Part shown: piece by piece, positions 1 to 64,000 of the stretch
Numbering within the stretch: the stretch's first letter is position 1
Layout: each line of letters begins with the position of its first letter
NCBI GenBank assembly: GCA_010405405.1
Contig: MU004238.1
Span: forward strand, 1,313,530-1,377,529
Length of the DNA: 64,000 bases
From: Microthyrium microscopicum
Lineage: Eukaryota
Direction: 5' to 3'
Notes under the pieces: generated by a model
Seen by the model: only the letters and a program-made list of their open reading frames with translations
Told to the model about the DNA's origin: nothing
Database searches by the model: none
Program-made: the position numbers and the translations under genes

Positions 1-278
1 AGAGCTACTTCTTTAGCTTTAGTATATTCTATAGTTAAGAGAACTAATAAGTTTCTAACTATTATAATTAATAGCTAAGCATACCTCTAAAGTAGCTTAG
101 CTTATAGATAGACTACTCTAGCTTAGAGAAGAACCTTAAAGATTCCTAGGCAATAAGATAAAGGCTAAGGAATTCCTTTATAGTTTCTTAGTAATTACTC
201 CTATTTCTATTTTTATATACCTAATTTATTAAGTATCTTATAACCTTTTTACCTACTCTATAACCCTAATCTCTAATA
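1..278 (+). repeat. 5' LTR of element A (partial)
   Basis: Colinear with 8362-8639 apart from transitions; ends CTAATA (=CTAACA). Confidence 0.9.
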
Positions 279-399
279 TTATAATTACTTCTTACTAATA
301 AAGTACCTATAAAGCTTTTCCTTTAAAATATTATAATTAGTTATAAGTAACGAACTAATAAAACCTAAGGGTAAGGCTCTTAGAGTAAATCTAGTTATA

Positions 400-3300
400 C
401 TAGATATAGCTATACTAACTCTAGTAGGACTAAGTAGCCTTATAGGCAATCCTAATAATATAGAATAAGCCTATCTAGAACTAGTAATAAATATAAAAAA
501 AACACTAGAATAGCTATAAGCTAAAATATAGTAAATACGCAATATACTTAAGATTAAATAACTTAAAGTAATAAAAGTAGCCTATAAACGTAGAGAACTT
601 TGCTTAGTTAAATAGATTAATAAATAGGGTTAATATAATACTAGCTTAGCTATTTTAGCTTATATTAAATATAATAGCTCTAAATTAGCTTATAGTAGTA
701 ATAAATTATAGATATATAAAGCTAAAAGTCTATAAGAATATAAGAATTAGGTCTTTAATATAACTAATATACTTACTATAAAGAAATATAAGGAGGACCT
801 ATACCTAGTAGTTCTCTAAGCCTATAATTACCTTAATAAAGAAGTTATATAACCTACTTAGAATAATTATATTAATTTCTAGACTTAGTTAGCTAAACTA
901 GACTAATATAAACCTACGTAGGCCCTTATAGAATAATAGGCTCTTAAACTCCTTAGTTCGTTTATTAAGAGACGTTATAAAGCCTTCTAGAGCTTCTTAA
1001 TTACTATAATAGAAGAAAAGATCCCCTAAGAATACTTTAATAAGCTTATACTTCTCTTTTATAAGTATAAGATTAATAATATATTAATTTGCTTATTATT
1101 CTTTAGTAATAGACTATCTACTTGCCTTAGAAATAATATAATCTTTAACCTAGACTATATAGTTAAGATAGTTAAAGAAGCTTTATCTTAATATATTTTA
1201 AAGTACTTAAGACTTATTAGTAACTAGAAAATACTAACTACTTCTAAGAAAGATATTAGGAATAGTAAATCCTCTAAATAGCGTTTAATATCTATAGATT
1301 TAGAGGATAAGACTTAATAAGGTTTCTAGAAGAATAAGTTAAAAAAGTCTAGACTAAGCCCTCTTAATAGGGCTTTAAAGCTAGATAAACTAAAGAGTAA
1401 TATAACGCCTAGAGTTAAATAGTTATTCCTTAGTAACCTTAGTAAAAGTAAGTACTAGAACTATACTAAAATAAGCTATATAGCCTATAGCTACCCTAAC
1501 CTAAAGCTAAAGAAGTTAGAAAGAAAAGACTAAACTATAAGGTAGCTAACTAGGACCTTATAGCTTTTATTATAAATAATCTAGTCTTTAACCTCCTTAG
1601 TAACTTCTATAAAGTTATTATTACTTAAGTCCTAGAAGTAGTAAAGAATAAGAGGATTCTAAATAAGAAGGTATACTAATTAAAGAAATTATACTAAATT
1701 ATCTTATAAAAAACTACTTAGAATTAAGTAAGCTAAGATTATATACTATAAAGCATAATAATAGATAGTAAAGCTTATTTTAATATTATAGACTACGCCT
1801 TAGCTAAGAAGCTTTAATTAAAAATATATTATTTCTTAAAAGAGTTAGCTAAGTACCTAAATAGTATACTTATAGCTATTTATAGAGTAGTAACTACTAA
1901 AGTAATAGTAGTTAACTTTAATAAGATCCTAAAGACTAATAAAATATTATTTTATATTATAAACTTACTATACTATATAATTATTATAAGGATACTTTAG
2001 CTTAAGAATTAGAACTCCTTACTAGACTTTAAGGCTAAGACTTTATTCTTTATTTATCTAAAGAATAACTACTATAGTAAGATTAGCTCTATCTTCTTAG
2101 AGGAATTACTTTAATTAGGTTAAGATAAATTTACTTAGCTCTTTAAGTATCTAGTAGGTTTATTAAACTATATTAGCCTATAAAACTTACTATATTACTA
2201 TAAAGAGCTTATAGAAGCCTTTAGTAAAGACAAAGCATAGGATTTAGTAGAATATAGTTTATAGGACTTAGCTATTAACCTTAAGCTAGGTATAAGTATA
2301 CTCTATAGGCCTATTTATAGCCTATTAGAAGTAAAACTAGTTATTTTACGTAAATACCTTAAGAGAGACCTTAAGAAGGGATTTATCTATAAATTTTAGT
2401 CTTTTACTAGAGCTTTAATTATCTTTATAAAGAAGAAGAATAGTACCTTATATCTATATATAGACTATAGAGGCTTAAATAATATTATAATTAAGGACTA
2501 CTATGCTTTACTACTAATTAAAGAGTTATTAAACTAACTATTAAGAGCTAAGCTCTTTATAAGCCTAGATCTCTATAAAGTATACTATTATATTTATATT
2601 TATACTAGTAATAAATAGAAAATAGTATTCTAAACTAAATATAAGTCCTTTAAGTATTAAGTAATACTATTTAAGCTTACTAACGCTTTTATTACCTTTT
2701 AAGTATATATTAACTAAGTTCTATATAGCCTTATTAACGTAACTTATATTATTTATCTTAATAATATCTTTATCTTCTCTAAGAATAAAGAAGATTATAT
2801 TAAGTATATAAAGAAGGTACTTAAAAGACTTATTAAGTTTAAGTTATATACTAAGCTATTAAAGTATAGCTTCTATATAAATTAAACTAAGTACCTTAAG
2901 TACGTTATAACCTTAAATAGTATTATAATAGAATTAGAATAAATTATAATAGTTATAGATTAGCTAATACTATATAATATATATTAAGTAAGAGAGTTTA
3001 TTAGCTTTATAAACTACTATTAATATTTTATTACTAACTTTTTTTATATTATTTTCCTATTAAACTCTTTAATTAAGAAGTTTTTAGGGTAGGCTCTAAA
3101 AGGTTAATAGCTATATAATAAGAAATTAGTTCCTATTAACCTCTCTCCTAAAGCTATTTAATCCTTTAATAACCTAAAGGCTATCTTTATATATACCTTA
3201 ATCTTTACTTACTATAATTCTATATTAAAGACCTATCTAAAGATAAATGCCTCTAAGTAAGTAATCTATAGTATTTTAAGCTAAAAGCAAACTAAGCTAG

Positions 3301-5360
3301 GCTAAGAGAGCTAATAGTAACCTATAGCGTTCTACTTAAGAAAGCTATTAGGACTTAAGAGTTACTATAGAACCCTATAGTAAAAGTTCCTAGCTATTAT
3401 TAACTCTATAAAAGTCTTTTATAAGTATCTATATAGTATTCTAAAGTTCTTAGTCCTAATAGATTATATAAACTTTTATTTACTTAATATATTCTAAAAT
3501 ATCTTTACTATATATATAAGATAGGTAGATTTTCTTACTAAGTTTAAGTTTAATATTAAATACTACCTAGGGAAGATAAACCTTATAAATAGACCTTTAT
3601 AAAGACTAAACTATATCTCTTTAGGTAATATAGAATAGAAAAGAATTATAAATGCCTTATTAAACCTTATCTAAGATAAACTATAACTATTTAAGGTATT
3701 TAAGCTTAATAAAGACCTAATTAGGTTTATTAACGTTTTAGTTATATTTATTAGTACCTTATTATAGTACTTAAGAAATAATTCTTAGGAAGTAGATATT
3801 ATTACTACGTTAAATATATCTAATAGCTTTCTTACTAAGCTAATAAAAGATAAATAAATCTATTTATAGATAGAAGTTACTATAAAGAATAGTAGAGTCT
3901 AAGTTCTTTAATATTTTTATAATAACTTCTTAGAAGAAGGCTATAGAAGCTAACATAAGACGTTAAAGAAGATTTAACGCTATTATACTTAGAATAATAT
4001 TAATAAGAATATCTAAGAGTACTACATAGCCTATTTAGAGTATAAATAAAATACGTCTATTAAATAAGGCTAAAATAGGCTCTTTCTACTCCTACTAGTA
4101 CTAATAGCCCTCTAGAAAGATATTATAGTTAATTTTATTACTAACTTACTCTTAAGTATTTTCTAAAGATAGCTATATAACTTTATTATAGTAGTTATTT
4201 ATAAGCTAACTAAAATAGCTTATTATATACTCTATTATAAAGATATAGATATAAATAATCTTACTAAGCTCTTTTTATATAAGGTAGTATAACTTTATAG
4301 TATACTAAATATAATTATATCTAATAGAGGCTCTATATTTGTCTCTAAGTTCTAAAATATATTCTTCTACTACTTAAAGATCTAATAGAAGCTATTTACT
4401 ACGTTCTAATCTTAGATAGATAAATAAATAAAGCGTTAAAACTAAGAGATTAAGTACTATTTATATATTTACTATAACTAAGAATAGGACAATTAGGCTA
4501 AAAAGCTTAATTTTACTAAGTTTATATATAATAATAATATATATAACTTAACTAGTATTACTCTATTTATAGTATATATAGGTAGATATTTATACGTACT
4601 AAAAGTACCTAAAGAGTATCTAATAAATACTACTTTTAATATAAAGGAACTAATAGAATATATTCTATTTCTCTAAAGAGCCCTTTAAGCTTATTTAGAG
4701 AATATTTAAATTATATAAGCTAAATACTATAATAAAGGCTATAAGGACATTACCTTAAAGGTAAATAACTAAGTTCTACTTAATATAAAGAATATTAGAA
4801 TAGCTAAGTCTAAAAAGAAACTAGATATTAAGTATATAGGCCCTTTTAAAGTAATAAAGATTATTAACTATAATACGTACTATATTAACCTATCTAAAGG
4901 CGCTCTAGTTTATAATATCTTCTATATCTTCTTATTATAATAATATATACTTAATATACGCTTTCTATAATAAATAGTCTTATTTTAAGAAACTTTAGAC
5001 CCTAAAGAGACTAATTACTATAAGGTTAAAGGCGTAATTAAATATAAGGTTAATAAAAATAGTACCTATTATTATAAAGTAAAGTAGAAGAACTACTTTA
5101 TATCTAAAGTAAGCTAGGAACCTACTAGTAACTTCTTCTTAATTACGCTAAAGTATTACTAAGAGAAGTTAAAGAAAAAGGATATTTCTCTAGCTAAATT
5201 AGCTCTAATAAGAGTAACTAAATATAACTTAAAATAACTTAACTTAAATAAACCTTATCTAGAGCCTAAGAAGCTAAGGAGATATCTAAAGAAGCCTTTA
5301 GTACCTACTAAACCTATACTAGCTAAGAAAAGGCTAAATAGACTAAAATAGTTATAATAA
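400..5360 (+). pseudogene. RIP-inactivated gag-pol of element A (PR-RT-RH-IN-chromodomain, AT-hook-like tail)
   Basis: Conserved motifs in Gypsy order, read through RIP-derived stops; boundaries approximate. Confidence 0.85.
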
Positions 5361-5599: not shown

Positions 5600-7579
5600 T
5601 AGAACTAATTTTAAACCTAAACTTAAAACTATTAGTATTGCTTTAGCTTTACTTATTAATCTTTAAAGGAGTATCTTTTAAATACTTTAAAATAATAATT
5701 TTAGATTTATAGAGATATATTCCTAAGTACTATCTAGGTTTATAAAAAAGGACTTAGAAATTTAAGAAAGTATTTTATTAAAAGAAACTATCTTATACTA
5801 TTTATATAAATTAGTTTAAATAGAACCTAATAGCTACTAAGTACTAATAAATAGCTTATAATAAACCTAAAATATAACTAACTTTACCTATTAGATACTA
5901 AACGTATTAATTTAATATTAGATATATCTACTAGATACTATATCTACTCTTTAGACTCTTTAGACTCTTTAGACTCTAAATTGTTATCTTTAGAATTAAT
6001 CTAATCTATTATAACTAGATAGTAATAAAGAACTACCTACTTATTTATTCTAAGCTTATACTTATTAATCTAGCTCTAAAGAGTTATAAACTAACCTATA
6101 TTAAAAGCTTTCTCCTTCTTTTTAGTGCTATTAGCTTACTAAGAAGTAAGTATTTTTATAATATTAGTAAGATTACTAATTTAACGTAATAAAGTACTTA
6201 TAACTTAGAATAGAGTTAGTTAGAATTTAAGTAATATAATTAGAGTATTTATACCCTTTTAGCTACTATTTATAAGTAATTTAAATTTATAATAATAAAT
6301 ATAGAGATTATTATAGTACTTAATATAAGTAGTACTAATAATAGCTCTAAGTAAAGCTACTTTAGAGTAATAGATAGCCTTCTTAGTTATAAGGACCTTC
6401 TTACTATTTTTATAATATACTAGTATTATATAGATACTATTATATTTATTCTTAGTAATATTAGAATATAGAGAGAAGGTATTATTTATAGTATTAATAT
6501 AGATATACCTATTTATATTAGTTTAAACCTAAGTATAATAAAAGGATTTACTTATGTCTAGATAGCTTTTATAACGTTCTTATTAGTAATGTAAACTACC
6601 TTTTTAGTATAAAGGAGCTAACCTATATTATACTTACTTAGATTACTATTATAAGTTTACTAGCAAAGTATATAGACCTTTATTACGTTATAATACTTCT
6701 AAAGGAAGTTCTTAGTAATACTCTTCTTATAAAGAATAATCTAAGAAATAATTAGTAATAATTAGATTTAAATTAAATTAATTAGGAATAACTTACTTTA
6801 AAATATTATTAATAGAACTTTATAGTCTTATAGGTTATATAGTAATAACTATCTTAAACCTTAAAGGCTAATACGTAGTCCTTAAAAGCTATATAGTACT
6901 AATCCTTTAAATTAGTATATAAAAAAGTCTTAGTATATACTTTAATATATTACTAATATAGATTAAGTATAAGAAACTATTTAATAATTAACTTAGCCTT
7001 ATTTTTATATAAAATAAACTTATTTATATTAGATAGTTCTATCTTATTATTATTAAAATTATATAAAAGATATTTACTACTTAACTAACTATAATTAATT
7101 AATACGTTATAGATAAAGAAGGTTTAGTATAATTTAAACTAAGCTTAAGTCTTATTAGTACGTATAATACTATTAAAATATATTTACTTTATATTAGGCT
7201 AAGAAAGTTTAGATTTATTATTATAGTTATACTTAGAAGCCTTTCCTTTTTTCTTAGCCTAAATAGTATTCTTTTTAATTTTCTTAAATTTTAAAAGCTC
7301 TAAAGAGGAGTAGTCTAAACTTAATAGTTTAATATAATTATTATTAGTATTAATTTAGGTACTATTAATAAATTTAACCTTATTAGTTACCTTTTTAGTA
7401 GTATTAATATTAATAGAATTAGCTAGTTTTATAATGCTAGTAATTAGAGTCTTTAGTAAAGTAATAGTATCTTTAGAGACCTTAGAGATATCCTTAGAGA
7501 CCTTAGAGGCATTAGATAGAAATAAACTAGGTTTATTTAAAGCCTTATTAGCTTCTACTTTATCCTTTATAGTAGCTAT
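5600..7579 (-). pseudogene. RIPed antisense multi-intron gene of unknown function carried by element A
   Basis: Minus frame from ATA(=ATG) at 7579 has only 3 stops in ~130 codons; exon 6255-6508 has 1 stop in ~85 codons. Intron-like segments at 7139-7187, 6977-7023, 6899-6940, 6741-6796 (GTAAGT..ACTAAT..TAG), 6509-6555 and 6204-6254. Removing 6741-6796 and 6509-6555 joins low-stop frames. Confidence 0.7.
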
Positions 7580-8279
7580 TAGAGAGAATAGATATAAAAA
7601 AATATAAAGTATACTAAGTAGATTTATAAGAAAGCTATTAGTAAAATATTAGGACTACTAGCTAAGACTTATTTTTATACTATAGCCCTATTTATAAAGA
7701 TTAGCTTTACTTAGTTAGCTAAGGTTTACTTAAGTATATATCTTAATTCTATAAAAGTAGAATAAAAAAGAATTAGAAGAAGTATATAATTATAAGATTA
7801 AATATACTTTATTTAATACCCTCTTACCTAATTAGGTTAGTAGAGAGTAAATACTTACTTTATTAAGTACTTCTTATTAAGGAAAGCTTTAATATTAATC
7901 CTTACTATAAGTAAAGATTCTAAAGAGGAAAGTTACCCTTAGTAAGTAATAATCTATAAATTAAGTAGACTTAAGGTAATAGCCTAAGGAAACTTAAAAA
8001 CGCTTAAGTCCCTAATAAACCTAGATAAACCTAAATAAGTACCTAATAGTAACGTTTAGCTTTATAAATTATTATTTAAGAAGTACTCTTTTAAGTAATA
8101 TTTAAAACTAATAATAAGTTTACTAAGATTTACTAAGATTATTATCTAGCTAGTTAGATAGTAGCTAAGTAGTTTATACTATTATAATATAATACGCCTT
8201 AAAGCGTATTAGTACTATTAGAATATAGTTAACTCTTTAGAAATCTATAAGGACGTTTAGGTCCTTATTAGAGAGATAA

Positions 8280-8639
8280 TATTAGGAATTAAACCTAATA
8301 GACTCTTTAAGATAGGTATTATAGCCTAAGTGCCTTAGCCTAATAGCTATTAGAAGCTAGTAGAGCTACTTCTTTAGCTTTAGTATATTCTATAGTTAAG
8401 AGAACTAATAGGTTCCTAATTATTATAATTAGTAGCTAAGCGTACTTCTAAGGTAGCTTAGCTTATAGATAGACTACTCTAACTTAGAGAGAAACCTTAG
8501 AGGTTTTTAGGCAATAAGATAGAGGCTAAGGAATCTCTTTATAGTTCCTTAGTAATTACTCTTATCTCTATTTCTATATACCTAATCTATTAAGTGTCTT
8601 ATAACCTTTTTATCTACTCTATAATCCTAATCTCTAATA
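8280..8639 (+). repeat. 3' LTR of element A (360 bp)
   Basis: Begins TATTAG (=TGTTAG) after purine tract AGAGAGATAA and ends CTAATA; matches 1-278. Confidence 0.85.
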
Positions 8640-8737
8640 GTAGATCTCTATAATCTAATCTAAAAAGTTAACTTTAGTAATACTAGAGACTTTAAGTCTT
8701 ACTAAATTACTAATAGCTTTTTTATGCTAGTACTTAT
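8640..8737 (-). pseudogene. Fragment of pogo/Fot1-like transposase lying between elements A and B
   Basis: Minus frame continues across the CTTAT TSD from F(Q)PYK at 23447-23461 into (H)(W)HKKAI...ITKV(D)FL. Confidence 0.8.
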
Positions 8738-8939
8738 TGTTACGGATCCTCTCCGTTAAGATCTTCTTTGGAGATCTCTAGCATCCTATTACGTGATGCT
8801 AAGGGCTTAGCGCCTAAGGTTTAGCTAGTATAAAGCTTATCTTCTACTAGCCTTAATTCCTCTTCTAGATCCTCTATCTTAGTTTTCTTAAATTATATCT
8901 ATATCTAGATTATACCCTTATATTTATAGCTTCCTAATA
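8738..8939 (+). repeat. 5' LTR of element B
   Basis: TGTTACGG...CTAATA; shares a 1-nt deletion with 23245-23446. Confidence 0.95.
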
Positions 8940-14381: not shown

Positions 14382-14584
14382 TGTTACGGATCCTCTCCGT
14401 TGAGATCTCTTCATAAGATCTCTGGCATCCTCGTTACGTAATGCTAAGGGCTTAGCGCCTAAGGTTTAGCTAGCATAGAGCTTATCTCCTGCTAGCCCTA
14501 ATTCCTTTTCTAGATTCTCTATCTTAGTTTTCTTAAATTATATCTATATCTAGATTATACCCTTGCATTTATAGCTTCCTAATA
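14382..14584 (+). repeat. 5' LTR of element C
   Basis: TGTTACGG...CTAATA; near-identical to the B LTRs. Confidence 0.95.
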
Positions 14585-21523: not shown

Positions 21524-21726
21524 TATTATAGATCTTCTCTATTAAGATCTCTTTATAAGATCTTTAGTATCCTTATTATGTAATACTAAGGGCTTAGTGC
21601 CTAAGGTTTAGCTAGCATAGAGCTTATCTCCTACTAGCCCTAATCCCTCTTCTAGATTCTCTATCTTAGTTTTCTTAAATTATATCTACATCTAGATTAC
21701 ATCCTTACATCTATAGCTCCCTAATA
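21524..21726 (+). repeat. 3' LTR of element C
   Basis: Follows the PPT, matches 14382-14584 and is followed by TSD TCTTT. Confidence 0.95.
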
Positions 21727-23244: not shown

Positions 23245-23446
23245 TATTATAGATCCTTTCCGTTAAGATCTCCTTTAGAGATCTTTGGCATCTTATTACG
23301 TAATGCTAAGGGCTTAGCGCCTAAGGTTTAGCTAGCATAGAGCTTATCTCCTACTAGCCCTAATCCCTCTTCTAGATCCTTTGTCTTAGTTTTCTTAAAT
23401 TATATCTATATCTAGATCGCACCCTTATATCCGTAGCTCCCTAACA
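23245..23446 (+). repeat. 3' LTR of element B
   Basis: Follows the PPT, ends CTAACA and is followed by TSD CTTAT. Confidence 0.95.
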
Positions 23447-47200: not shown

Positions 47201-47709
47201 TACTCCAAATGATCCAATATATCTTTTGTCTGGGAACCTCGACAGTTGCTTTCCTGGTCGAGCCGGTTTTTTGGACGACACGAGGGAAAGGGAGGACGCT
47301 TCGGATACATTCGAAGGGTCGGTAGGTAAGCTAACTGCGGGCGTCGTTTGATCTTTCCATGATCCATCTAGATAGATGTTGATAGCTGTTTATTTCAATT
47401 AGCCATAAAAGCCAGTAGGTCGAGGTTGAACTCACCTCGTTCTAAGTTTCCATCGGAAGCCTTTATTAAATGTTCAACAACGGTAGTTGATAACGTTTCG
47501 CCAATAATTCCAGCTAACAAATCAACGTCAAATGCACCAGGTGTATGCGGGGCTATCTCTGGTGTTTTTATCGTTACTTCAGCTTCGACGTTTGACGACA
47601 GCAATGGCGCAGATGACTGTGTAGATGTGGACGAACTCGGCGGCAGTTCATCATCTACGAAGAATCGTCTCTTCTTCGCAGGTCGCTCCTCTAATTCTGG
47701 ATGGGCCAT
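44255..47709 (-). CDS. RAD5: DNA repair protein Rad5 (HIRAN, SNF2 helicase, RING)
   Basis: HIRAN region, GGILADEMGLGKT, VVLDEAH, RING CPIC...CWHSACKQC...CFNC, QAIDRVHRMGQ; introns 47386-47435 and 44334-44399. Confidence 0.95.
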
Positions 47710-53399: not shown

Positions 53400-54421
53400 A
53401 GTGCAAATTTGTAGGGCGCCTCTTGGTTGCGGCTCTGTAGCAGCCTCTTAAAACTATCCTTTGTAAATACTACTTCTTGGGTCGCTTTTAAAGCCGTGCT
53501 GGCGACGTGGATAGCGGAATAGCAGTATTTAATTACTGCTTATTTTTCAACTTTATAATATCTTAAAATGGTAGTATTCCTATTAATTAATAGCGTTTAA
53601 AGCTCTTTAATAGTAATTATATCTTAATGGAGCTAATTAGGCCATAATCTTAAGTTAGGTTCTTAAAGATATTAAAGCTAAAGTAGGTAGAAGGACAATA
53701 TTCTTACTAGTAGAGTTAAAGATCTAGAGTTAAAGATATTAAACGGTATAGGATTATTAGCGCTAAGGGCTATTTTATTAGTAATTAAATCTAATAGTAG
53801 TAAAGAAGCTAAAGATTTAGTAATAGCGACGCTAATAGAGTGCTATTTTAAAGTTAATAAAGAAGTAAGAGTAATAACTATAAGATATCCTATTAATTTA
53901 GTCTAAAATTATTAAAATATATCTATTTAACGTTATTTTACCTTTAACGATTCCTTAATATCTTCTATATAACTTTCTACTACTATTTTAGTATTAAAAT
54001 ACTTCTTAATACTATAGTTTATACTTATTAGGTCCTTAGTCCTATCTAATCTCTAAATCGTTATATCTTAACGCGTACTATAGGTAAATACTATGCGTTA
54101 GTACCTAAAAAGGCTACAAGATAGTTATTTAAGATCTATATAGATATAGGTAGAATTACTCTACTAAAAACGCCTATACTAGCCTTAAAGGCTCTAGCTA
54201 TGTCTTCTTATCTTAAGGATCTAATTCTTATATCTTATACTAAGCCTACGCTATTACCTATTCTTTATAGTAAAATTAATATAAATACTATTATTCTTAA
54301 CTATTTACTAATACTATTAGCTTCTTAGGTTTAACTAGATAAGTATTCTTTATAATAAGATAGTAAGACTTAAGATATCTTAGAGTATGCTACTAATAGA
54401 TTATATCTTTAAGATATTAAC
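53400..54421 (-). mobile_element. Unidentified RIPed repeat hosting element E (continues at 63201-64000)
   Basis: RIP signature on both sides of E, joined by the TSD. Minus strand has long low-stop frames but no motif I could recognise. Confidence 0.45.
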
Positions 54422-54689
54422 TATTAGAAATAGGTCGTTCTAAGTAGGTAAAGACTATAATTATTACGGTTTAAGTAGATATATAAAAATAGGGATAAGA
54501 GTAATTACTAGAGAGTTACTTAGACCCCTATAATCCCTCTTCTTTATTACCTAGAGCTATAAGGACTCTACTAAGCTATCTATATTTATAATAGGTTATT
54601 ATTAATTAACTTAACTAATAACGCTTTATCTTATATAGACGTATCTTATTAGTAGCTATCTTAAACTAGAGGTATCTTAATTCCTAATA
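54422..54689 (-). repeat. 3' LTR of element E
   Basis: Matches 62933-63200 apart from transitions; adjacent pyrimidine tract is the minus-strand PPT. Confidence 0.93.
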
Positions 54690-55829
54690 TTATTCCTCTT
54701 CTTAAGGCTATTTATCCTAAAGAGTATATTTAAAAGTTCTAATAGATATTTCTTATACTTATATATAGCTTTTAACTATACTCTATTATACTAAGACTTA
54801 GAAGAGAATAAGGCTTAACTAAACGTATAAGATTAAGCTACTTATATCTTAAGGAGTTTTCTATAGCCTAGTAATATTCTTATTCTCTAGCTTTAGTATA
54901 TAACTTATTCTAAATAGATAGCCTTTTATTTTTTACCTACTCTAGATAAATAGCTCTTTATTTTTTACTAGTCTTAGATTATAATTAACTATATTAACTT
55001 AAACTTAAAGAAGTCTAGTTATTAAGGTCTAATATATTAGTAGAATATTTAATAAGTAATTACTAGCTCTATTAGGGTCTTAATTAATTAATACTAGCTT
55101 TATTAAAGCTAAATTAAGCTATCTATAAATATAGTATAGTATTACTATTTATATTTAATTAGATCTTATTAAAATGCTACTAGATAGTTATCCTATATAT
55201 AGTATAAGTTATCTAGTTATTAAAATATATATAGCTTAACTTAATTAGTTATATTATATTAGATATACTAAATTTATATTAGTTTAGTATAATTAGCTTT
55301 ATAATAGGTTAAGTAGCTATAACTTATATATAAAACTATTCTATAAGCCTTATTTAGCTTTAAATTAGAAGCGTATTTTAACCCTATTTTGTATTAAAAA
55401 AGGTTCTTAAAGAAGTACTCCTTATATACGTATCTTAATGCTTCTTATGTCTAATTAAAAGTTATTTTGTATTATTTATAGTAAGGTATTTAAATCTTTA
55501 CTTAAAAGTTTAAAGACTCTAAGGCTAGGATTATACTTTCTTATTTAGAAAGTTATAACTCCTTTAAGTACTTACTATACTATACGTAACTTTCTTTTAC
55601 TATAAGAGGCTTTTATAAGTCTTTACTAAGTATTATTATATTAATACTTAGCTATTTTAGGAAAGTAAAGAAATTTAGGTATAAAATAATTCTTCTTACT
55701 CTAAATTCTTTATCTCTTATTTTTTATACTCTAAATCTTAAGATAAGTAGAAATTCTATAGTTTTATAAATATATATAAAGATTACTATTACTAACCTAT
55801 TTTATATTATAGGTCCTTCTTTAGTAACT

Positions 55830-57353
55830 ATAAATTTTCTTTTCTTAGTTATTAAGCTACTTAGCGCCTCTTTAAGTCTCTTTAACCTATTTTAGTATAC
55901 TTTATACTTTTCTAATTTTTAATAACTTATTTTAATTAATTTATATACTTTTAAACCTATTTTTATTTAAAGTAGGTATTAATATAAATAAGTTACTTAA
56001 AGATTCTATTAAAGGCTCTTAAGTCCTTACTAAAGGTAACTTTAATTCTAGTAAGACTATAGTAACTATTCCTACTAATAAAGATATTAATATATTTTAT
56101 AATAACTAAATCTTAACTACTAATATTATAGACCTTACTAAAGTAGTCTTTAAGAATAAAATAAAGTAAGAATACGCTAATAAGAGTATTATAGCTTTAC
56201 TTAGCCTATTATAGTACTACTTAACCCTAAATCTCTATTAGCGTTATATAGAGATCTATATAGCATATTTCTTTTCTTTTTTAATTACTAAACTTTACCT
56301 TATTCTTAACTTAGACTATTATTATGCTTAGTAAGTTAGTTTAGGTAAGTACTTTATTAAATACTTTAATATAAAGTTAACTAAGGATTATTTAGAAGTA
56401 ATATCCTATTCTAGCTTATTTTACGTTATATTATATTAATATAAGTAAGTTATTCCTTATTAAGACCTTTATAATAAAGCTAAGCTTATTTTAGTCTATA
56501 TTACTATTAATAAGGTTATTTATACTCTTAAGAATAGTTCTTAAGACAAATTATTTTATAAAGATAAGCGTATACTTTATAATAGTATTTAGTACGCTTA
56601 TAAGTACGTAGTAACTCTTTATAAGTTATAAGTACTTATTTTAACTAATTCTAGTCTAGCTTTATATATTTAGACGCTAATTAATTTATAGTTATATATC
56701 TAAGTAGCTAGTAGTTAACTTTTTTCTATTATACTTTAGTATTGCTAAGGGTAGCTTTTATGTAACCTACGTACTTATTAACTACTATATAAGTACTAAA
56801 GCTACCTAAAAGCTAATAAATAATAGCCTTTTAGAATTAGAGAAGCGTATTATAGCTTATCTAGCTCTCTTAGGCGCTAATATCTAATTCTATCTTCTTA
56901 AGCGTTTTAAGCGCTATAATATGCTATATTCTTAGCGTATAGACTTCTACTATATTATTAGTCTTTAAGGACTTAATATATCTTAGGTAAGTTTTTTTAT
57001 ATCTATACTAGGTTACTTTATATTTAACTATTCTATAGTAATTTACTAATACTAAGAATAATCTAGCTAGTATTCTTTTAAACTCTTAAGTACTTTTTAA
57101 GCACTATAAGGCCTATCTTAGTATTTCTAAGCGTTAAGAAATTAAGGCCTATATTAAAAAGGCTATTAAGGCTTTCTATAAGGATAGTTATACTAATAAA
57201 GACTATTTTAAGGTTAAGGCTATAGCTCCTACTATAAAAAAGTGTAAGATAGGCTAGGTAGCTTCTTCTTAAGTTAAAATAAAGTTAGATAGGTTATCTT
57301 AGATCTTTTTAGAATTTAATATTATCTATACTTAGCCTTAATTAGCTAAGTAA
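55830..57353 (+). pseudogene. RIPed antisense multi-intron gene of unknown function carried by element E
   Basis: Low-stop plus-strand frames; intron-like segments 56345-56395, 56445-56494, 56604-56659 and 56987-57038. Removing the 52-nt 56987-57038 joins two long frames in phase 0. Start approximate. Confidence 0.65.
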
Positions 57354-57749
57354 GGCTATTTCTTATTATATTAAGTTATTTTGTATTCCTTAAGGATAAG
57401 TTAGTTAGTAGATACCCTTCTAAGACTTCCTAAGAATAAGTTTATTAGTAAATACCTTTATAGAACTATTATATAGCTAATTTAACTCTTAGTTAGAAAT
57501 TACTTATTCTTTTATATATTTTCTAATATATATTTTAACCCTATTTTGCGTTATAAAGAGTTTTTAAAAAAGTACTCCTTATATATATATAGAAACCTAT
57601 TTTATATATTATTCTAAGTTATTTTATATATTTATAACTTAGTAGTTTTTTTATATACTTATTATCTAGTACTATTTTTAAGTTACTTTAGGTTAATTTA
57701 TTATAATATACGTATAAAGGAGTTAATTTAGGTTCTAATTAGTAAGAAA

Positions 57750-60700
57750 ATTATAAAGTAATTATTCCTTTTCTTTAAAAGCTTATCTTAAGTCTTTTAG
57801 GTCTTTTTTAGCCTTTCTAGCTATCTTTTTAGTCTTATAGGGTTAAGATTTATTAACCTATCTATAATATTATCTAAATATATTATTTTATATTTAATTA
57901 CTCCTCTAATTATACTTATTACTAGTATAATGCTTTTCTTAGCTAACTTTATATAATAGTACTTTAAAGTAATTAAAGAAAGGTTAGCTATAGGCTCTTA
58001 AGTTAATTTAGACTCTAAGTAACTTTTCTATTTTATAAAGTAGTAATATTTACTCTTTTTATCTACTATATACTTTATTACTTCCTCTATATTATATATA
58101 TTTAAGTCTTCTAGGTTTAAAGAATCCTATAGTAATATAGACTTCTATAGAAAGTAGAGGTTTAGCTTATATAGCTCTAATAGGAAGATATAGAATATAT
58201 TATAGACTTATATATTCTTTAGGAAGTTAAGCTAATAAGTATTAATATTTATAACTTCTATAATCTTAAAAAGACCTATATACTTAATATTAAGCTTCTT
58301 CTTAACGTAAGTAGTCTAAATATTCTTTATATTAAGTAAGACTTAGTTATTAATATTTAAATAAACGTTCTTCTTCTCTTTATTATACTAGTTAGCTTAG
58401 TATAGCTATACTTTAGCTAATTTATTTCTTATTACGCATTATAGAGATAAGATATAGTTTACTATCTTCTTAGCGTTAAGTATAATACTTTTTAATAGTA
58501 TTTTAGCTAATTTAAAAGTATAGGAGTTTCTTCTAGTATATATAATAAAAAAAGTAACTTTAGTTAATAAGTAAATACTATTATTATAGTTAAACTTAGC
58601 TAAACTAAGCTATCTTGCTTAATTGTTCTATTTCTAATACCTATAAATCTATAAGTAGTACTTAACCTCCTAGTTTAAGTACTCTATTTAACTATTAGTC
58701 TATAAGTAGAATACTATTAAGAGTTTTCTAAGGATAGAAAGATAATAAAGAAATATTTTCTAGTACTTAAAAATAAAGAAAGGTCTTTAATTAGATATAA
58801 TAGTATAAAGTATACTATATAGGTATATAACCTCTTATAAAAAGATCTTAGTAAAGTCTTTTATATCTATATTCTTTCTTATTAAGATATAGTAAGCTAT
58901 TTTAGTTAATTTATTAATAACTACTATAATAGAGTTATAAATTTAATTATTATAAATACTTAGGAGTAAATTTATAATAAAATCTATAGTAATATTCTTT
59001 TATAGCGCTTCTAAGATTAATAAGACTATTAATAACCCTTTCTAAGCTTATTTAATAAATTTATTACGTTAGTAGTTAAGGCAAGCCTTATAATAGTTTT
59101 TAATGTTCTTTTAGATATAGTCCTAAGTATAGTAGCGCTTAATCTTCTTAAGTATCTTCTTTAATCCTTTATAACTATCTTTTATAGCGTTATTATAAAA
59201 CTTTTATAAAATTTTCTTCTTTTATAACTCTTTCTTAACGAAAATAAGATTTTTACTTATTTATTTAGCTTTATCTAAGTTATTCTTAGCTAGAAGTAGT
59301 TTATTAATAGCTAAAATCTTACTAAAGCTTATTTTTAAATACTTCTAAGTCTTAGTAGGCTTATCTTAATCTTTCTTAAGTTAATTTATAGTAAAATACT
59401 ATATATTAATACTAATATACGTAATAATAAAGTCTATAAGTCTAATAGCGTTAGTTTTAGCTATAGGAGTATTATCTAGCTATAACTTATTATAAAGTAG
59501 GTTAAGTAACGCTTCTATAGTCTTTTTCTATTCTCTTTAGCCCTCTTTAACATAGTCTAGACGTCTTAAGGGTCTATTAGCTAGATTTATCTTACCTAGG
59601 TAGTACTTAATATTAAAATTATATTCTAAGAGTAAATCTACCTATTTTATATATATTAATAATATTTTTAGTATTATTTTAAGCAATTTAAGATTTATAT
59701 AGTCTATTAAGACCTAAAATTAGTCTAGTAAGCCTTATAAGTACTTTCTAAATACTTTTAAGAAATTTATAATTACTAAGAACTCCTATTATAGAGTTTT
59801 ATAGTAGCTCTCTAATAGAGACAATTTCTAAGAATAGAATATAATAAGTTTCTATAAGCTATTCTAGCTTTTATTACGCTATTTCTAGCTTAATATCCTA
59901 TAAATTGCCCTTCTAGAAGCATTAGTTTCTAACTATATAGAAAGTATAGAGTTAAAATAGACTAAAATTAGTACGTTTATAAAAGAATCTTTTAGTTTAT
60001 TAAAAGAATTTAAGGCGTCTAGTAGTAATTTAATATCTATAAACTTCTCTTATTATAGCTTTAAGCCTTTTAGGGCTTAACCTAGTTCTTTCCTAGTTAA
60101 GGCGTTTAGTAATATAGTAATATAGAAGAATCTAGTAATAAACTAATAATAATAGTTTATAAAGCTAATAAATTCTCTTACTTAGTATATATTATATAGT
60201 TTTAGCTAATCTAGGTATATATTAACCTATAACTAATCTATAATAGTACTATCTAAGGTTATAATATAACTTAGATACTCTATACTACTAGTATAAAACT
60301 TATACTTAGATAGCTTTATATATAAATAATACTCTATAAGTTGCTATAAGACTTCTTAGACGTCTTTAATATATTACTCTTTAGTTTTAGAGTAAATAAG
60401 GATATTATTAAGATAAATAATATATATTATGTCTACTAAGCCTCTTAATACTTAGTTAATATACGCTTAAAAGGCTATAAAAGCATTTATAAGTCTAAAT
60501 AAAACTACTATATACTTAAATATTTTATATTTAGTCCTAAACGTAGTCTTTTACTTATTACTATCTTTAATATATAAATAGTAGTAAGCTTTATATAAGT
60601 TAAGGCTAGTAAAAAACTTAGCGCCTTAAAGTCTATTTAAAGACTTCTTAATAAGAAGTAATGCGTACTAATTCTTAATAGTAATATTATTTAGGCCTTA

Positions 60701-62800
60701 GTAATCTATATAAAGTTATAATATCCTATCTTTCTTCTTTATAAAGAGGATAGAGGCTTTAGTAAGGAATTTTAACTTCTAGATTTAACCTTTTATAAGG
60801 TAAGTATCTAAGTACTTACGTAGAATAACTAACTTAGCTTTTAAGAAGCTATAAATAGGTCTATATAATACTATAGCGCCTAGCTCTAAGTTAATCTTAA
60901 GGTCTTATAGACTATATTAGGCTAGTTTAAGTATATCTTATTTACTAAAGACTTTAGCAAACTATAAATACTTACTTAAGAGCTCTTTTATAAATAAATT
61001 TAGGTCTAGTAACCTAACTAGATAATTAAATAGTTAAGATAAATTATCCTAAGCTAACTTAGAGAATTTATTAACGTTTATAGTTTCTATCTTACTATAG
61101 AAGCTACTAAAAAGTTACTTTTATATAAAGGTCTTATTCTTAAAGTCTAGAAAAGGATTCTATTTCTTTAACTAGAGTATTTTTATAATAATAGAGTAAT
61201 ATAAAGAGTTTATAATATAAAATAACCCTATTCTAGTCTTAGGGAGGCTATTTAAGTTAACTATTATTATTATAGCTTCTATAACTTTATAAATTTATAT
61301 AAGAGTACTATTTAGGTATATTATAAGTATCTTAAGAAGAAGAGTAATATAGAGCTAAAGTTTTTTAGCTAGCTTAATATTTATAACGTTAAAGTATAAC
61401 TTATAATTAACTATAATATCTAAGGATAGAGCCTCCTAGCCTTTATTATTCTTTAAACTTCCTTATAGGTATATTTACTTTAACTTTAGTCTTATAAAGT
61501 CTACCTTGCTAAGTAAGTTATTATTCTTAGCTTTTAACGTCTCTAAGACGTATATAATAATAGTTTTATAAAGCTATTTAGCGCTAAGCTAAGCTATTTT
61601 ATTAATAAGAAAGGTTACTAAGTCCTAGTCTATAACTTTATAACTTTATTTTTCTTTTATAGCTTAGGGCATTCTATTTTAAAGTAGAGTCTACTATATT
61701 TAAAGTATTTAATCTTTTTTAAGTTAGACTCTAGTAGAATATCTACGTTCTAAGTCGTTTTAGGCATAGCTTATTCTACCTTACTATTCTTTAAAGAGTA
61801 GAAAGACTTTCTAAGTATTCTTAGCTCTTTTAAGCCCTTCTTATACTTATACTTATCTCTTAAGAAGTATAAGCGTTATTTTAAGAAAGATTATCCTAGG
61901 TTTACTTTTTTAAGAGTAGAATAAGCCTTAGCCTCTATAGAACTAAGAATCTAATATAAGTTAGCCTTTTTAAAAGCCTCTTTAACTATAGTAGTAGTAA
62001 ACTTCTTATTAAAAAGAATCTTCTTCTATATATTTCTAAGAAAGTCTCTATAAAACTAAAAGAGGTAACTCTTCTAATTATTATATTTCTATTTCTTCTA
62101 TAACTTAAGGAGGTTATTATAAAGCTCCTAAAGGTAGTGTTAATCTAATTTAACTATCTAAGACTTCTTAAAAGTAATATATTCTTACTTTATAGAGTAG
62201 CCTAAATAGCCTAGCGTATAGTTTTAGACTACTTACTATATCTTTTAAAATCCTAAGTCTTAGGACTCTTTATAAAAGATAAGATTATTTAATTCTATCT
62301 ATAATAGCTCTTTCTTAAGCTAATTACGTTTATAAATATACTAATAGAGTTACTAGTTATAAGTACTTTCTTAATAAAAGGGTTTAATAAACTTTTATTT
62401 AACGTTATTAACCTAAGATATATATTCCTAGAGACTCTTCTTCTTATAAAGCTCTATCTTAGGCCTATCTTAATTTAAAAGTTCTAAGAGAGTAAAAGCT
62501 TAGCTTAAAAGATACTAATTAAGTCTTATTATATTAACTTAGCTAAAGTTCTCTAACTTTTAGGTAGTTTTAAGTTTACTAAACTAAATTACCCTAGCTT
62601 TTACTATTAGCTCTTATATCTTAAGCTCTAGCTTCTTTTTATTAATAAGTACGTTAAGTTCCTTCTTATAATACGTTATAAAGTTATTTTAGGTCTCCTT
62701 AGGCCTAGGTAAATTAAGGTTAGCTAGTTTAATATTAGATAGGTCTAATAAATCTCTAAATATATTAGTTTAAGGTATAATAGGTACTAATAACCCTTAG
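57750..62800 (-). pseudogene. RIP-inactivated gag-pol of element E
   Basis: Gypsy domain order on the minus strand; boundaries approximate. Confidence 0.85.
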
Positions 62801-62932
62801 CCTAATAGTTAAGGCTACTTAAGTCTTATCTAGGTACTAAGGTCTAAATATCTACTATTAGATATAGTTTCTAATTAAATAAAAGATAAAAATAATTTCT
62901 TTAGGTACTTAAAGGTTAAGAAGTAATTACTA

Positions 62933-63200
62933 TATTAGAAATAAGTTATTCTAAGTAAGTAAAGACTATAATTATTATAGTTTAAGTAGATACGTAAAAA
63001 TAAGAATAAGAGTAATTACTAGGGAGTTACTTAGATCCTTATAATTCCTCTTCTTTATTACCTAAAGCTATAAGGACTCTACTAAGCTATCTATATTTAT
63101 AATAAGTCGTTATTAGTTAACCTAACTAATAACGCTTTATCCTACGTAGACGTGTCCTATTAGTAGCTGTCTTAAACTAGAGGTATCCTAGTTCCTAACA
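62933..63200 (-). repeat. 5' LTR of element E
   Basis: Minus strand begins with intact TGTTAGGAAC. Confidence 0.93.
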
Positions 63201-64000
63201 TTAATATTACTTAACCTTTTCTAGTTAAAGTAATCTAAAATATTCTTAATGCTACTTAGGATGTTATTTATAAGCGTTAATATAGCCTAAACTACGTCTA
63301 AGAGACGTATTTACTTAGAACTAGTATCTAAAACGCTATAATAAATAGTGCTTAGTATTTTAAGATATTTTTACTTAATTTTAGCACCCTAGTTTCCTAG
63401 ATTAACTTTACGCTATTAACTCTACTAGTACCTAAATTCCTTCTTAAAATTACTATCGTTATAAAGATTTAAAAGTAAGGAATACCTATTATTAAGAATA
63501 AATTTAATTATATTTGCTAGAGTCTAGTTTAAACCTTTAAAAAAACTTAGGAATAGCTTAATTTACGTCTTAAAGAGCAAGGAATAATATATAGTTCTAT
63601 TATCTTAATATAGATATTTTTAAAGCAATAAATAAAGAAGGGGACTAAAGATCTTTAATATAGCTTTAGTATTAATTTAGGCTTAAGCAATAAGGAGCTT
63701 AATAGTATTCTTACTCTAATTTAGCGCTAAATTGCTTACTAGTACTAGTCTAATTTCCATTAGAATACTTAACACATTAGTAATCTTAAATAGGAGATTT
63801 TGTTTAATATTACTAAGCTAGAACGTCCTCCTTTAGCGTTAGTAATAACAGCTAAGATACTTAAATAGGTAGATCTACGTTACGAAGAATACTAACGGCA
63901 TATAAATTCCACCTTAGAATTTATTATATTATTAAGTAAATAGCTATATTAGGATAAACGCTATCTAAATTACCTTAATAGTAGTTACTACTAAGTCAAT

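What the first reader, a model, noticed from the sequence alone, without database searches (positions are those of the whole stretch)
55830..57353. Second Gypsy family (E) has an apparently homologous antisense intron-containing gene at the same position
Seen: E has different LTRs (268 vs 360 bp) but the same architecture, with ~3 kb after pol holding an antisense gene with at least four intron-like segments. The relic proteins share motifs in the same order: E 'LTLNLY*RYIEIYIAY' (~56221-56268) vs A 'LILNLY**YIK|YYIAF' (across intron 6899-6940), and E 'AYLALLGANI' (~56855) vs A 'SKVALLRAII' (~6350). One intron in each begins GTAAGTTATTCCT. Inference: the gene is an inherited module of a chromovirus clade, not a one-off host-gene capture, and may define an undescribed TE-encoded protein family. 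Caveat: RIP reduces amino-acid complexity, which inflates chance matches.
Basis: partly seen in the sequence, partly recalled or inferred. Interest (0 to 1): 0.85.

Follow-up and report, generated by a model that had tools for sequence, protein, structure and literature searches.

The report
Dead antisense gene inside fungal retrotransposons
Two mutation-riddled fungal Gypsy retrotransposons each carry, after their polymerase gene, the wreck of an extra gene on the opposite strand that seems to have had introns; extra genes placed this way are already known in other fungal and plant elements.

Summary
The observation largely holds. Elements A (1-8642, +) and E (54422-63203, -) are RIP-saturated Ty3/Gypsy elements. 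Each has about 3.1-3.25 kb between pol and the 3' LTR.

In both, only the strand opposite to gag-pol shows coding-like codon structure, in three blocks of changing frame:
- A: 7579-6851, 6740-6561 and 6462-5905.
- E: 55909-56568, 56702-56920 and 57042-57254.

The two longest stop-free frames in the 24-kb RIP block lie in A's blocks. Two canonical intron-like segments in A (6796-6741, 6637-6558) sit at the block junctions and give exactly the observed frame shifts.

A-E similarity is weak but specific. Block 1 scores 100, against a maximum of 72 over 936 comparisons with other RIP-mutated translations. One transition-blind island reaches 0.80 purine/pyrimidine identity.

Not supported:
- "At least four introns" is not shown.
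- The shared GTAAGTTATTCCT lies off the alignment diagonal.
- No protein could be reconstructed, and no homologue or Pfam family was found.

The class is not new. An antisense gene between pol and the 3' LTR is published for Botrytis Boty elements (brtn) and for plant Grande, RIRE2 and Retand. Homology to brtn could not be tested.

Verdict: probably a real, dead, inherited accessory gene; a new member of a known kind; moderate interest.

The parts
1..281 (+). Element A, 5' LTR (cut by the window start)
   Evidence: Direct repeat with 8362-8642, 91% identity
283..1500 (+). Element A, gag relic (frame starting at 283)
   Evidence: Low stop density and positive codon score in this frame. Similar to E gag at z 25 against shuffles.
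1632..5201 (+). Element A, pol relic (RT, RNase H, integrase, SH3_Tf2-1)
   Evidence: Pfam hits RVT_1, RT_RNaseH_2, RT_RNaseH and SH3_Tf2-1 in the frame starting at 282. 49% aa identity to E pol.
6851..7579 (-). A antisense coding-like block 1 (frame f2); contains a 97-codon stop-free stretch at 7355-7648
   Evidence: Codon log-likelihood 29.7, against 9.4 +/- 2.0 and a maximum of 16.4 in 200 shuffles. Holds the longest open frame in 1-24000.
6899..6940 (-).
   Evidence: Signals read from the sequence. Removing it makes 13 of 25 residues identical to E by my count. The length is a multiple of 3, so an in-frame indel is equally possible.
6741..6796 (-). A, intron-like segment of 56 nt (GTAAGT...ACTAAT...TTAG)
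   Evidence: Matches the strict intron pattern. It joins frame f2 to f1 in phase and ends exactly where block 2 starts.
6638..6740 (-). A antisense block 2 (frame f1), putative exon 2
   Evidence: Codon score 7.0 for 6740-6561. Bounded by the two intron-like segments.
6558..6637 (-). A, intron-like segment of 80 nt (GTAAGT...ACTAAT...CTAG)
   Evidence: Matches the strict intron pattern. It joins f1 to f0 in phase (worked out).
5905..6557 (-). A antisense block 3 (frame f0); contains an 87-codon stop-free stretch at 6259-6522
   Evidence: Codon score 16.5 for 6462-5905. Second longest open frame in 1-24000. Holds the purine/pyrimidine-conserved island 6485-6396.
7749..7858 (-). A, third strict intron-like pattern (110 nt), upstream of block 1
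   Evidence: Its role was not examined.
8362..8642 (+). Element A, 3' LTR (at least this part)
54422..54692 (-). Element E, 3' LTR
   Evidence: Direct repeat with 62933-63203, 89% identity
55374..55504 (+). E, internal direct repeat, copy 1
   Evidence: 71-78% identical to 57531-57661. Together the two copies flank the antisense blocks.
55909..56568 (+). E antisense coding-like block 1 (frame f1); holds the 'LTLNLY*RYIEIYIAY' motif
   Evidence: Codon score 17.4, against 11.0 +/- 2.4 in shuffles, p 0.01. Similar to A block 1, score 100.
56445..56494 (+). E, possible 50-nt intron starting GTAAGTTATTCCT
   Evidence: The 13-mer is shared with A 6796-6784. The frame after it is poor (10 stops in 36 codons, my reading), and it lies off the alignment diagonal. 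Doubtful.
56702..56920 (+). E antisense block 2 (frame f2); holds 'AYLALLGANI' and the conserved island 56715-56804
   Evidence: Codon score 8.2. Purine/pyrimidine identity 0.80 to A 6485-6396. Local alignment z 4.7, exceeded by 0 of 100 shuffles.
56987..57038 (+). E, intron-like segment of 52 nt (AG|GTAAGT...TTAAC...TATAG)
   Evidence: The donor was found by the strict pattern. That pattern's own acceptor at 57066 gives the wrong frame. The acceptor at 57038, read, joins f2 to f0 in phase, just before block 3.
57042..57254 (+). E antisense block 3 (frame f0)
   Evidence: Codon score 14.0
57531..57661 (+). E, internal direct repeat, copy 2
57923..61528 (-). Element E, pol relic (RNase H, integrase zinc domain, SH3_Tf2-1, weak chromodomain at 57977-58096)
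   Evidence: Pfam; tblastn with A pol
62933..63203 (-). Element E, 5' LTR

Best explanation
A and E are two diverged families of one lineage of fungal Ty3/Gypsy elements, now inactivated by repeat-induced point mutation (RIP). Their common ancestor carried an extra gene on the opposite strand, between the integrase end of pol and the 3' LTR.

Inferred mechanism: the gene was transcribed from its own promoter in the 0.8-1.2 kb next to the 3' LTR, towards pol. Its transcript was spliced by the host spliceosome and encoded a protein of several hundred residues. Its introns could persist through rounds of retrotransposition because in the element's genomic (sense) RNA they are present only as reverse complements and are not spliced out. 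By analogy with other antisense accessory genes of retroelements, the protein most likely regulated the element's own expression or its silencing.

Shown here: strand-specific, frame-specific coding-like structure; intron-like segments in A that fit the frames; weak specific similarity between A and E.

Inferred only: transcription, splicing, the protein and its function. Both copies are dead now.
For: 1. Architecture. pol ends at about 5200 in A and about 57950 in E, and the LTRs start at 8362 and 54692. The more distant Gypsy copies at 8.6-24 kb (31% pol identity) have only about 630 nt there.

2. Codon structure, using a model trained on the other element's pol.
- A: best antisense segment 29.7, against shuffles of 9.4 +/- 2.0 with a maximum of 16.4 (0 of 200 reached it).
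- E: best antisense segment 17.4, against 11.0 +/- 2.4 (p 0.01).
- The best sense-strand segments reach only 7.3 and 7.8.
- Non-coding frames of pol reach at most 12.9.

3. A training-free check. Stop density falls to 5-8 per 150 codons in single antisense frames, as low as in pol. The two longest stop-free frames in 1-24000 (97 and 87 codons) are both antisense in A's post-pol region, and the next longest (82 codons) is the sense-strand mirror of the first. The longest within A's own gag-pol is 60-61 codons, and other Gypsy relics in the block reach 79.

4. Introns. A strict donor-branch-acceptor pattern occurs 4 times in 6.4 kb of antisense post-pol DNA, 0 times on the sense strand there, and 5 times in the other 56.9 kb searched. 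By my arithmetic that is a Poisson p of about 0.003. In A, two of these lie at the junctions of the coding-like blocks, and their lengths (56 and 80 nt) give exactly the frame changes f2 to f1 to f0.

5. Homology between A and E.
- Block 1 scores 100, against 51 +/- 7 in shuffles (0 of 200 reached it) and against maxima of 64 and 72 in 468 real RIP-mutated background windows each.
- A transition-blind local alignment gives z 4.7 (0 of 100 shuffles). The opposite-orientation control gives z 0.7 and the reversed control z -0.6.
- The similarity islands lie on diagonals 63029, 63194, 63200 and 63221, all equal modulo 3, with matching frame pairs.
- Sense-strand translations show z of 1.6 or less.
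Against: - Similarity between A and E is thin. Only 3 of 65 90-nt windows reach purine/pyrimidine identity 0.72, against 5 of 28 in gag and 68 of 74 in pol.
- With BLAST's composition correction the block 1 match vanishes (E 1.1). The gag control, a true homologue, also nearly vanishes there (E 0.18).
- Transversions are only slightly enriched at third codon positions in the islands (72, 73, 92; p 0.20).
- E's coding signal is modest (p 0.01), and shuffles reached 18.8.
- I could not find a consistent exon-intron model for E. The shared GTAAGTTATTCCT is off the diagonal. At E block 3 the sense strand has the longer open frame (68 against 47 codons).
- No Pfam family matched in any antisense frame at E up to 10.
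- No relative appeared in 5.8 billion clustered proteins or in 1.84 billion representatives. RIP-mutated queries have little power, though: gag gets no Pfam hit either.
Confidence: 0.6

Rival explanations
1. The long region after pol is non-coding (an untranslated or regulatory spacer, as in many elements). The coding-like blocks, intron-like patterns and A-E matches are chance products of RIP-skewed, low-complexity sequence.
For: - RIP is saturating: TpA/ApT is 1.8 and (CpA+TpG)/(ApC+GpT) is 0.03-0.06. This inflates chance matches.
- The composition-corrected BLAST is not significant.
- The DNA-level alignment of the whole region is no better than its opposite-orientation control (z 3.2 against 3.0).
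- The third-position test is not significant.
- No homologues were found.
Against: - The codon score in A lies far outside 200 shuffles and outside pol's non-coding frames.
- The two longest open frames of the 24-kb block lie here.
- The signal is specific to one strand and one frame.
- The intron patterns are enriched on one strand and fit the frames.
- The A1-E1 score exceeds all 936 comparisons with real RIP-mutated background.
Confidence: 0.15
2. The relic is not an ancestral module. It is a nested insertion or a transduced piece, such as a fragment of another transposon or a host gene, that landed in the post-pol region. In E it would lie within a unit bounded by the 131-nt direct repeats.
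For: - E's antisense blocks (55909-57254) lie neatly between direct repeats at 55374-55504 and 57531-57661.
- RIP-rich blocks are full of nested elements: other Gypsy copies and LTR-like repeats lie at 8.6-24 kb.
- Genes with spliceosomal introns are typical of host genes and DNA transposons (general knowledge).
Against: - A has no comparable flanking repeat.
- Both elements have the relic in the same place and orientation and at similar size, with collinear similarity in matching frames. Two independent insertions would not give that.
- No transposase or other family was detected.
Confidence: 0.15
3. The region encodes a third sense-strand reading frame (env-like or other) downstream of pol, and the antisense signal is its shadow.
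For: - Sense frames are also fairly open in places: an 82-codon frame at 7359-7607 (+) in A and a 68-codon frame at 57078-57284 (-) in E.
- In true coding regions one antisense frame can score up to 12.9.
Against: - Sense-frame codon scores are negative where the antisense score is highest (for example -4.1, -18.3 and -6.0 against +15.4 at 7182).
- The best sense segments, 7.3 and 7.8, are below the shuffle mean.
- Sense-strand translations of A and E show no similarity (z 1.6 or less).
- No strict intron pattern and no Pfam hit were found on the sense strand.
Confidence: 0.05

Closest known systems
brtn, the antisense gene of Boty-like Ty3/Gypsy elements of Botrytis cinerea and Sclerotinia (Zhao et al. 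2011, Virology 417:248). That paper was not held. I saw it only as cited in passages of PMC8365987, PMC7264820, PMC4227169 and PMC5987419.
   Same: A fungal Gypsy element with a chromodomain, carrying an additional gene between pol and the 3' LTR in antisense orientation. It is present in more than one species or family. A BRTN-like transcript with 63% identity is reported in Monilinia (passage).
   Different: Sequence relationship is unknown. No BRTN sequence was available to me, and my RIP-mutated queries found nothing. Here the coding-like blocks span about 1.35-1.7 kb with intron-like segments. I could not see the size or intron content of brtn.
Antisense additional ORFs between pol and the 3' LTR of plant Tat-lineage Gypsy elements: Grande, RIRE2 and Retand (TRP28 domain, PF04195). 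Sources: PMC7264820 passages; PMC11963269 abstract and passages.
   Same: A long pol-to-3'-LTR region (2.9-6.6 kb in Retand) holding an antisense gene that is conserved across copies and species. Function unknown, with a regulatory or nucleic-acid-binding role proposed.
   Different: Those are plant elements and not chromoviruses. The TRP28 domain was not detected here (no Pfam hit at E up to 10). The passages I read mention no introns.
HBZ of HTLV-1 and related antisense genes of retroviruses (mentioned in PMC11963269 passages; that HBZ is spliced is recalled, not seen in a call).
   Same: A protein-coding gene on the minus strand of a retroelement, near its 3' end, expressed from its own promoter.
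   Different: That is a vertebrate retrovirus, with no sequence relationship. The promoter lies in the 3' LTR itself.
Antisense-intron retrotransposition indicator cassettes (laboratory constructs; recalled, no call).
   Same: The same logic: an intron placed antisense to the element's RNA is not removed from the genomic RNA, so it survives in new copies.
   Different: Those are artificial reporters. Here it would be a natural gene.

Membership tests
Ty3/Gypsy LTR retrotransposon | Two LTRs flanking gag and a pol ordered RT - RNase H - integrase | tested here: met
   LTR pairs found. RVT_1, RT_RNaseH_2 / RT_RNaseH, Integrase_H2C2 and SH3_Tf2-1 lie in this order in one frame.
Chromovirus (Gypsy with a chromodomain at the integrase C-terminus) | Chromodomain after the integrase | tested here: inconclusive
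   E has Pfam Chromo at E 0.055 and 13.8 bits, below the 25.1-bit cut-off. A has no hit. RIP lowers sensitivity.
[quoted passage not shown] | Located between the end of pol and the 3' LTR | tested here: met
   The blocks at A 7579-5905 and E 55909-57254 lie between pol's end and the LTR.
Antisense additional ORF between pol and the 3' LTR | Coding capacity on the strand opposite to gag-pol | tested here: met
   Shown as a relic only. Evidence comes from the codon score, stop depletion and longest open frames. Every block carries stops, for example 13 in 243 codons.
Antisense additional ORF between pol and the 3' LTR | Conserved among copies or families to a degree like the element's other proteins | tested here: inconclusive
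   Only two copies are available. The similarity islands are specific but sparser than in gag.
Antisense additional ORF between pol and the 3' LTR | Transcribed from its own promoter | not testable with these tools
   No RNA run holding the stretch was listed.
BRTN protein family | Sequence similarity to BRTN | not testable with these tools
   No BRTN sequence could be obtained. Searches with RIP-mutated queries returned nothing at all, which is uninformative.
TRP28 / Transposase_28 (PF04195) | Match to the Pfam model | tested here: not met
   The only Pfam hit in the six antisense read-through translations at E up to 10 was a chance-level Spiralin match at E 0.43. RIP lowers sensitivity.
Spliceosomal introns (fungal type) | GT donor, CTRAY-like branch site 5-20 nt before a YAG acceptor, about 40-120 nt long, restoring the reading frame | tested here: met
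   Met for A 6796-6741 and 6637-6558. Met for E 56987-57038 only with a hand-chosen acceptor.
Spliceosomal introns (fungal type) | Removal seen in RNA | not testable with these tools
   No RNA data.

The most novel reading that the evidence does not exclude
A lineage of ascomycete chromoviruses carries, as an ancestral module, an intron-bearing antisense gene. It would encode a protein of roughly 400-500 residues, unrelated to brtn, TRP28 or any described family. That would make it a new retroelement accessory protein, kept under selection across families whose pol has diverged to about 50% identity.
Probability: 0.3. Interest if true: 0.65.

Novelty: new member of a known kind. Interest (0 to 1): 0.4.

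Why it matters
If intact relatives confirm it, antisense accessory genes would be a recurrent feature of fungal Gypsy elements, not a peculiarity of Boty. Introns kept inside a retroelement would also be a natural case of the rule that introns survive only when they are antisense to the element's RNA. It would give a second fungal system in which to ask what such genes do, for example control of the element's own expression or of host silencing. As it stands, both copies are dead, the protein cannot be read and the architecture has precedent. The finding is a lead for a screen of fungal repeat libraries, not a discovery in itself.

Tried and rejected
- **Whole genome and earlier findings.** Neither was available.
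- **DNA-level comparison of the post-pol regions.** blastn gave only short hits of no weight. A lax purine/pyrimidine alignment was no better than the opposite-orientation control.
- **BLOSUM62 with ordinary gap costs and plain blastp.** Both ran into the linear regime of biased composition. The reversed-sequence control reached 45.8 bits against 52.4 for the real comparison. I replaced these with stricter gap costs and real-sequence backgrounds.
- **Pfam on the antisense frames.** Nothing but a chance-level hit.
- **Pfam on 8643-24500.** I mapped the pol copies there with a tblastn script instead.
- **Protein searches.** A block 1 by word index: 830 candidates, none at E up to 10. A block 1 by exhaustive HMMER: 0 hits at E up to 0.001. 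E residues 245-345: 83 candidates, none.
- **Intact relatives through pol.** 19 weak hits at 21-30% identity. The JGI hit P0003 led to 79 metagenome loci of an AT-rich Gypsy family (L001-L079). In 10 of the 12 loci examined, the 3' LTR candidate starts roughly 70-290 nt after the pol match. One locus (L004) has about 2.6 kb there, and one gave no LTR candidate. This family is not of the same architecture, so the path was a dead end.
- **RNA evidence.** No RNA holder was listed, and one coded run held next to none of the words. No reads were laid.
- **Exon-intron model for E.** None was consistent with both the 50-nt segment at 56445 and the frames. I abandoned it.
- **MAFFT of the two GTAAGT regions.** It did not align the two 13-mers to each other.
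- **Tandem repeats.** Only short arrays were found.
- **Zhao et al. 2011.** Not held.
- **Structure prediction and the protein atlas.** Not used, because a RIP-mutated read-through with stops would give meaningless results.
Full report
**Setting.** The window has two AT-rich blocks (1-24000 and 54000-64000, GC 0.21-0.28) around a gene-bearing stretch of GC 0.42-0.50. The AT-rich blocks carry a saturating RIP signature. TpA/ApT is about 1.8 and (CpA+TpG)/(ApC+GpT) is 0.03-0.16, against 0.67 and 1.35 in the genic part.

Element A has LTRs at 1-281 (cut by the window start) and 8362-8642. Element E has LTRs at 54422-54692 and 62933-63203. I read stop codons as X and scanned against Pfam. A then shows RVT_1, RNase H and the Tf2-type integrase SH3 domain in one + strand frame. 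E shows RNase H, the integrase zinc domain, SH3 and a sub-threshold chromodomain in one - strand frame.

pol therefore ends near 5200 in A and near 57950 in E. That leaves 3.1 and 3.25 kb before the 3' LTR. A and E pol are 49% identical as RIP-mutated translations. The other Gypsy copies in the window (12.4-22.6 kb) are only 27-31% identical and have about 630 nt between the integrase and their LTR-like repeat. The long tail is a trait of the A/E lineage.

**Is there a gene relic, and on which strand?** RIP makes only transitions, so reading frames are kept but become filled with stops.

- *Stop density.* In 450-nt windows, stop counts fall to 5-8 per 150 codons in single antisense frames of the tail. 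This is as low as in the true pol frame (7-16), while other frames carry 15-40.
- *Codon usage.* I trained a log-likelihood on the RIP-mutated pol of one element and applied it to the other. It finds pol's frame in most 300-nt windows (best-scoring frame in 19 of 24 windows in A and 22 of 26 in E), with an antisense frame or a neighbouring frame ahead in the rest. In the tail it scores only antisense frames positively.
- *Best segments.* In A they are f2 7579-6851 (29.7), f1 6740-6561 (7.0) and f0 6462-5905 (16.5). In E, on the + strand, they are f1 55909-56568 (17.4), f2 56702-56920 (8.2) and f0 57042-57254 (14.0).
- *Shuffle test.* Against 200 shuffles the A value is far outside the null (9.4 +/- 2.0, maximum 16.4). 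The E value is at p 0.01 (11.0 +/- 2.4, maximum 18.8). The best sense-strand segments (7.3 and 7.8) are below the null mean. Non-coding frames of pol reach at most 12.9.
- *Open frames.* Without any training, the two longest stop-free frames in the whole 24-kb RIP block are 7355-7648 (97 codons) and 6259-6522 (87 codons). Both are antisense in A's tail. A's own gag-pol reaches only 60-61 codons, and other Gypsy relics in the block reach 79.

In E the picture is weaker. Its longest tail frame is on the sense strand (68 codons, 57078-57284), although the codon score there favours the antisense strand.

**Introns.** GTAAGT is not enriched in the window (50 observed against 54.6 expected). A strict pattern is another matter: donor GT[AG][AT]GT, a CTRAY-like branch site, then YAG, 40-120 nt in all. 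It occurs three times on the antisense strand of A's tail and once on that of E. It does not occur on the sense strand of either tail, and it occurs five times in the other 56.9 kb searched. By my arithmetic that is a Poisson p of about 0.003.

In A, the segment 6796-6741 (56 nt: GTAAGT, ACTAAT, TTAG) ends exactly where the f1 block begins and joins f2 to f1 in phase. The segment 6637-6558 (80 nt) joins f1 to f0 in phase (sequence, blocks). The blocks were found without splice information and the patterns without frame information. Their agreement is the best evidence that these are real introns.

GTATAT is what RIP would make of GTATGT. Removing it raises the local match to E to 13 of 25 residues by my count. 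Its length is a multiple of three, however, so an in-frame indel is equally possible.

In E, the donor at 56987 (AG|GTAAGT) lies at the f2/f0 junction. Only the acceptor at 57038, which I picked by eye and which gives 52 nt, restores the frame; the pattern's own acceptor at 57066 does not. I could not build a consistent model around E's 56445 donor, because the frame it leads into has 10 stops in 36 codons. 'At least four introns' is therefore not shown.

**Are the two relics homologous?** At the DNA level the tails barely align. Three tests that allow for RIP give a specific signal.

1. With strict gap costs, A block 1 against E block 1 scores 100, aligning A 7048-6778 with E 56155-56419. Shuffles give 51.3 +/- 7.4 (0 of 200 reached 100).
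2. A local alignment blind to transitions, with strict scoring, gives z 4.7 (0 of 100 shuffles) for A 6537-6398 against E 56665-56802. The opposite orientation gives z 0.7 and the reversed sequence z -0.6. Gag, a true homologue, is not detected at all at this stringency. The core, A 6485-6396 against E 56715-56804, has 0.80 purine/pyrimidine identity.
3. The islands lie on diagonals (A coordinate plus E coordinate) of 63029, 63194, 63200 and about 63221. All are equal modulo 3. The frame pair is A f2 with E f1 for the first two and A f0 with E f2 for the last two. This is what in-frame divergence of one gene would give.

Translations of the sense strand show nothing (z 1.6 or less).

Against homology:
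- Only 3 of 65 90-nt windows in the tail reach purine/pyrimidine identity 0.72, against 5 of 28 in gag, 68 of 74 in pol and 0 of 65 in a null.
- BLAST's composition correction removes the block 1 hit (E 1.1), though it also nearly removes gag (E 0.18).
- Excess transversions at third codon positions are not significant (72, 73, 92; p 0.20).
- The shared GTAAGTTATTCCT sits at diagonal 63241, 41-47 nt off the islands. On the island diagonal, A's donor instead faces a degraded GTAATA in E. Whether the two 13-mers mark one ancestral intron is open.

**What it is.** The most economical reading is that the common ancestor of A and E carried an antisense, intron-bearing accessory gene in its tail, now destroyed by RIP in both copies. 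The relics span about 1.7 kb in A and 1.35 kb in E. If A's three blocks are joined at the two intron-like segments, the frame would be about 500 codons long. That figure is my arithmetic, and the start codon cannot be found, because RIP turns ATG into ATA. An antisense gene can keep introns in a retroelement because the genomic RNA contains them only as reverse complements. Function is inferred only by analogy, as a regulator of the element's expression or of silencing.

Rivals are chance structure in a non-coding spacer, a nested or transduced piece, and a sense-strand third frame. For the nested reading, E's blocks lie between 131-nt direct repeats at 55374-55504 and 57531-57661, and A has no such repeats. 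I weigh these rivals in the fields above.

**Relation to what is known.** The architecture is not new. Passages in four papers cite Zhao et al. 2011. These describe Boty-like Gypsy elements of Botrytis cinerea (gag, protease, RT, integrase, chromodomain) with an additional antisense gene, brtn, between pol and the 3' LTR. It is also present in Sclerotinia, and a BRTN-like transcript is reported in Monilinia. The original paper is not held.

In plants, Grande, RIRE2 and Retand have antisense ORFs in a pol-to-3'-LTR region of 2.9-6.6 kb, mostly with the TRP28 domain. My other searches for fungal cases turned up nothing more. That is no proof of absence, because most subscription journals are not searched.

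No Pfam family, TRP28 included, matched the antisense frames. No protein in the two large collections matched. RIP-mutated queries are weak, since even gag gets no Pfam hit, so these blanks say little. I had no BRTN sequence, so membership in that family is untested.

My attempt to reach intact relatives through pol led to an unrelated AT-rich Gypsy family in metagenome contigs. There, 10 of the 12 loci examined have the 3' LTR candidate within roughly 70-290 nt of the pol match. No RNA data were available.

**Verdict.** The interpretation of an inherited antisense gene with introns is the best-supported reading (about 0.6). The claim of an undescribed protein family is unproven, and the kind of feature is already in print. 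I rate it a new member of a known kind, of moderate interest, and worth following only where intact copies can be found.

Noticed in passing
window 55374-55504 and 57531-57661: Inside element E, a direct repeat of about 131-180 nt (71-78% identical, core TTTAACCCTATTTTG...AAGTACTCCTTATATA) brackets the antisense coding-like blocks at a spacing of 2157 nt. Element A has nothing comparable. It could mark a nested unit, an internal duplication or a regulatory repeat.
   Followed up: partly
window 8643-24000: A different RIP-mutated Gypsy family (pol 27-31% identical to A) lies here in a tandem or nested arrangement with 5.6-kb and 1.7-kb spacings. LTR-like 205-nt repeats sit at 8736, 14381, 21523 and 23243. 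Only about 630 nt separate its integrase from the next repeat, so it has no long tail.
   Followed up: partly
window 5946-5977 and 7468-7508: Short tandem repeats with periods that are multiples of three (9 nt x 3.6 copies, 21 nt x 2 copies) lie inside A's antisense blocks. They read as ESKESKESKE and SKVSKDISKVSKD.
   Followed up: no
window 1-281 vs 62933-63203; 283-1500 vs about 61700-62932: The LTRs of A and E differ in length but are still detectably related in a transition-blind alignment (z 7.8). Gag is also related (z 17.5 at lax scoring, z 25 as protein). The two 'families' share all their parts.
   Followed up: yes
window 24000-54000: The GC-normal stretch between the two RIP blocks carries long open frames of ordinary host genes. 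Examples are a 997-codon frame at 44396-47389 (-) with helicase-like and RING-like motifs (judged by eye), a 605-codon frame at 35386-37203 (-) and a mitochondrial-carrier-like frame at 25021-25812. None was searched.
   Followed up: no
L001-L079 (metagenome contigs): An abundant AT-rich (GC 0.29-0.37) Gypsy family, 64-87% identical to protein P0003. LTR candidates are 160-480 nt long. In 10 of the 12 loci examined, the 3' LTR starts roughly 70-290 nt after the pol match. L004 has about 2.6 kb there. The family probably matched my RIP-mutated query partly through shared composition.
   Followed up: partly
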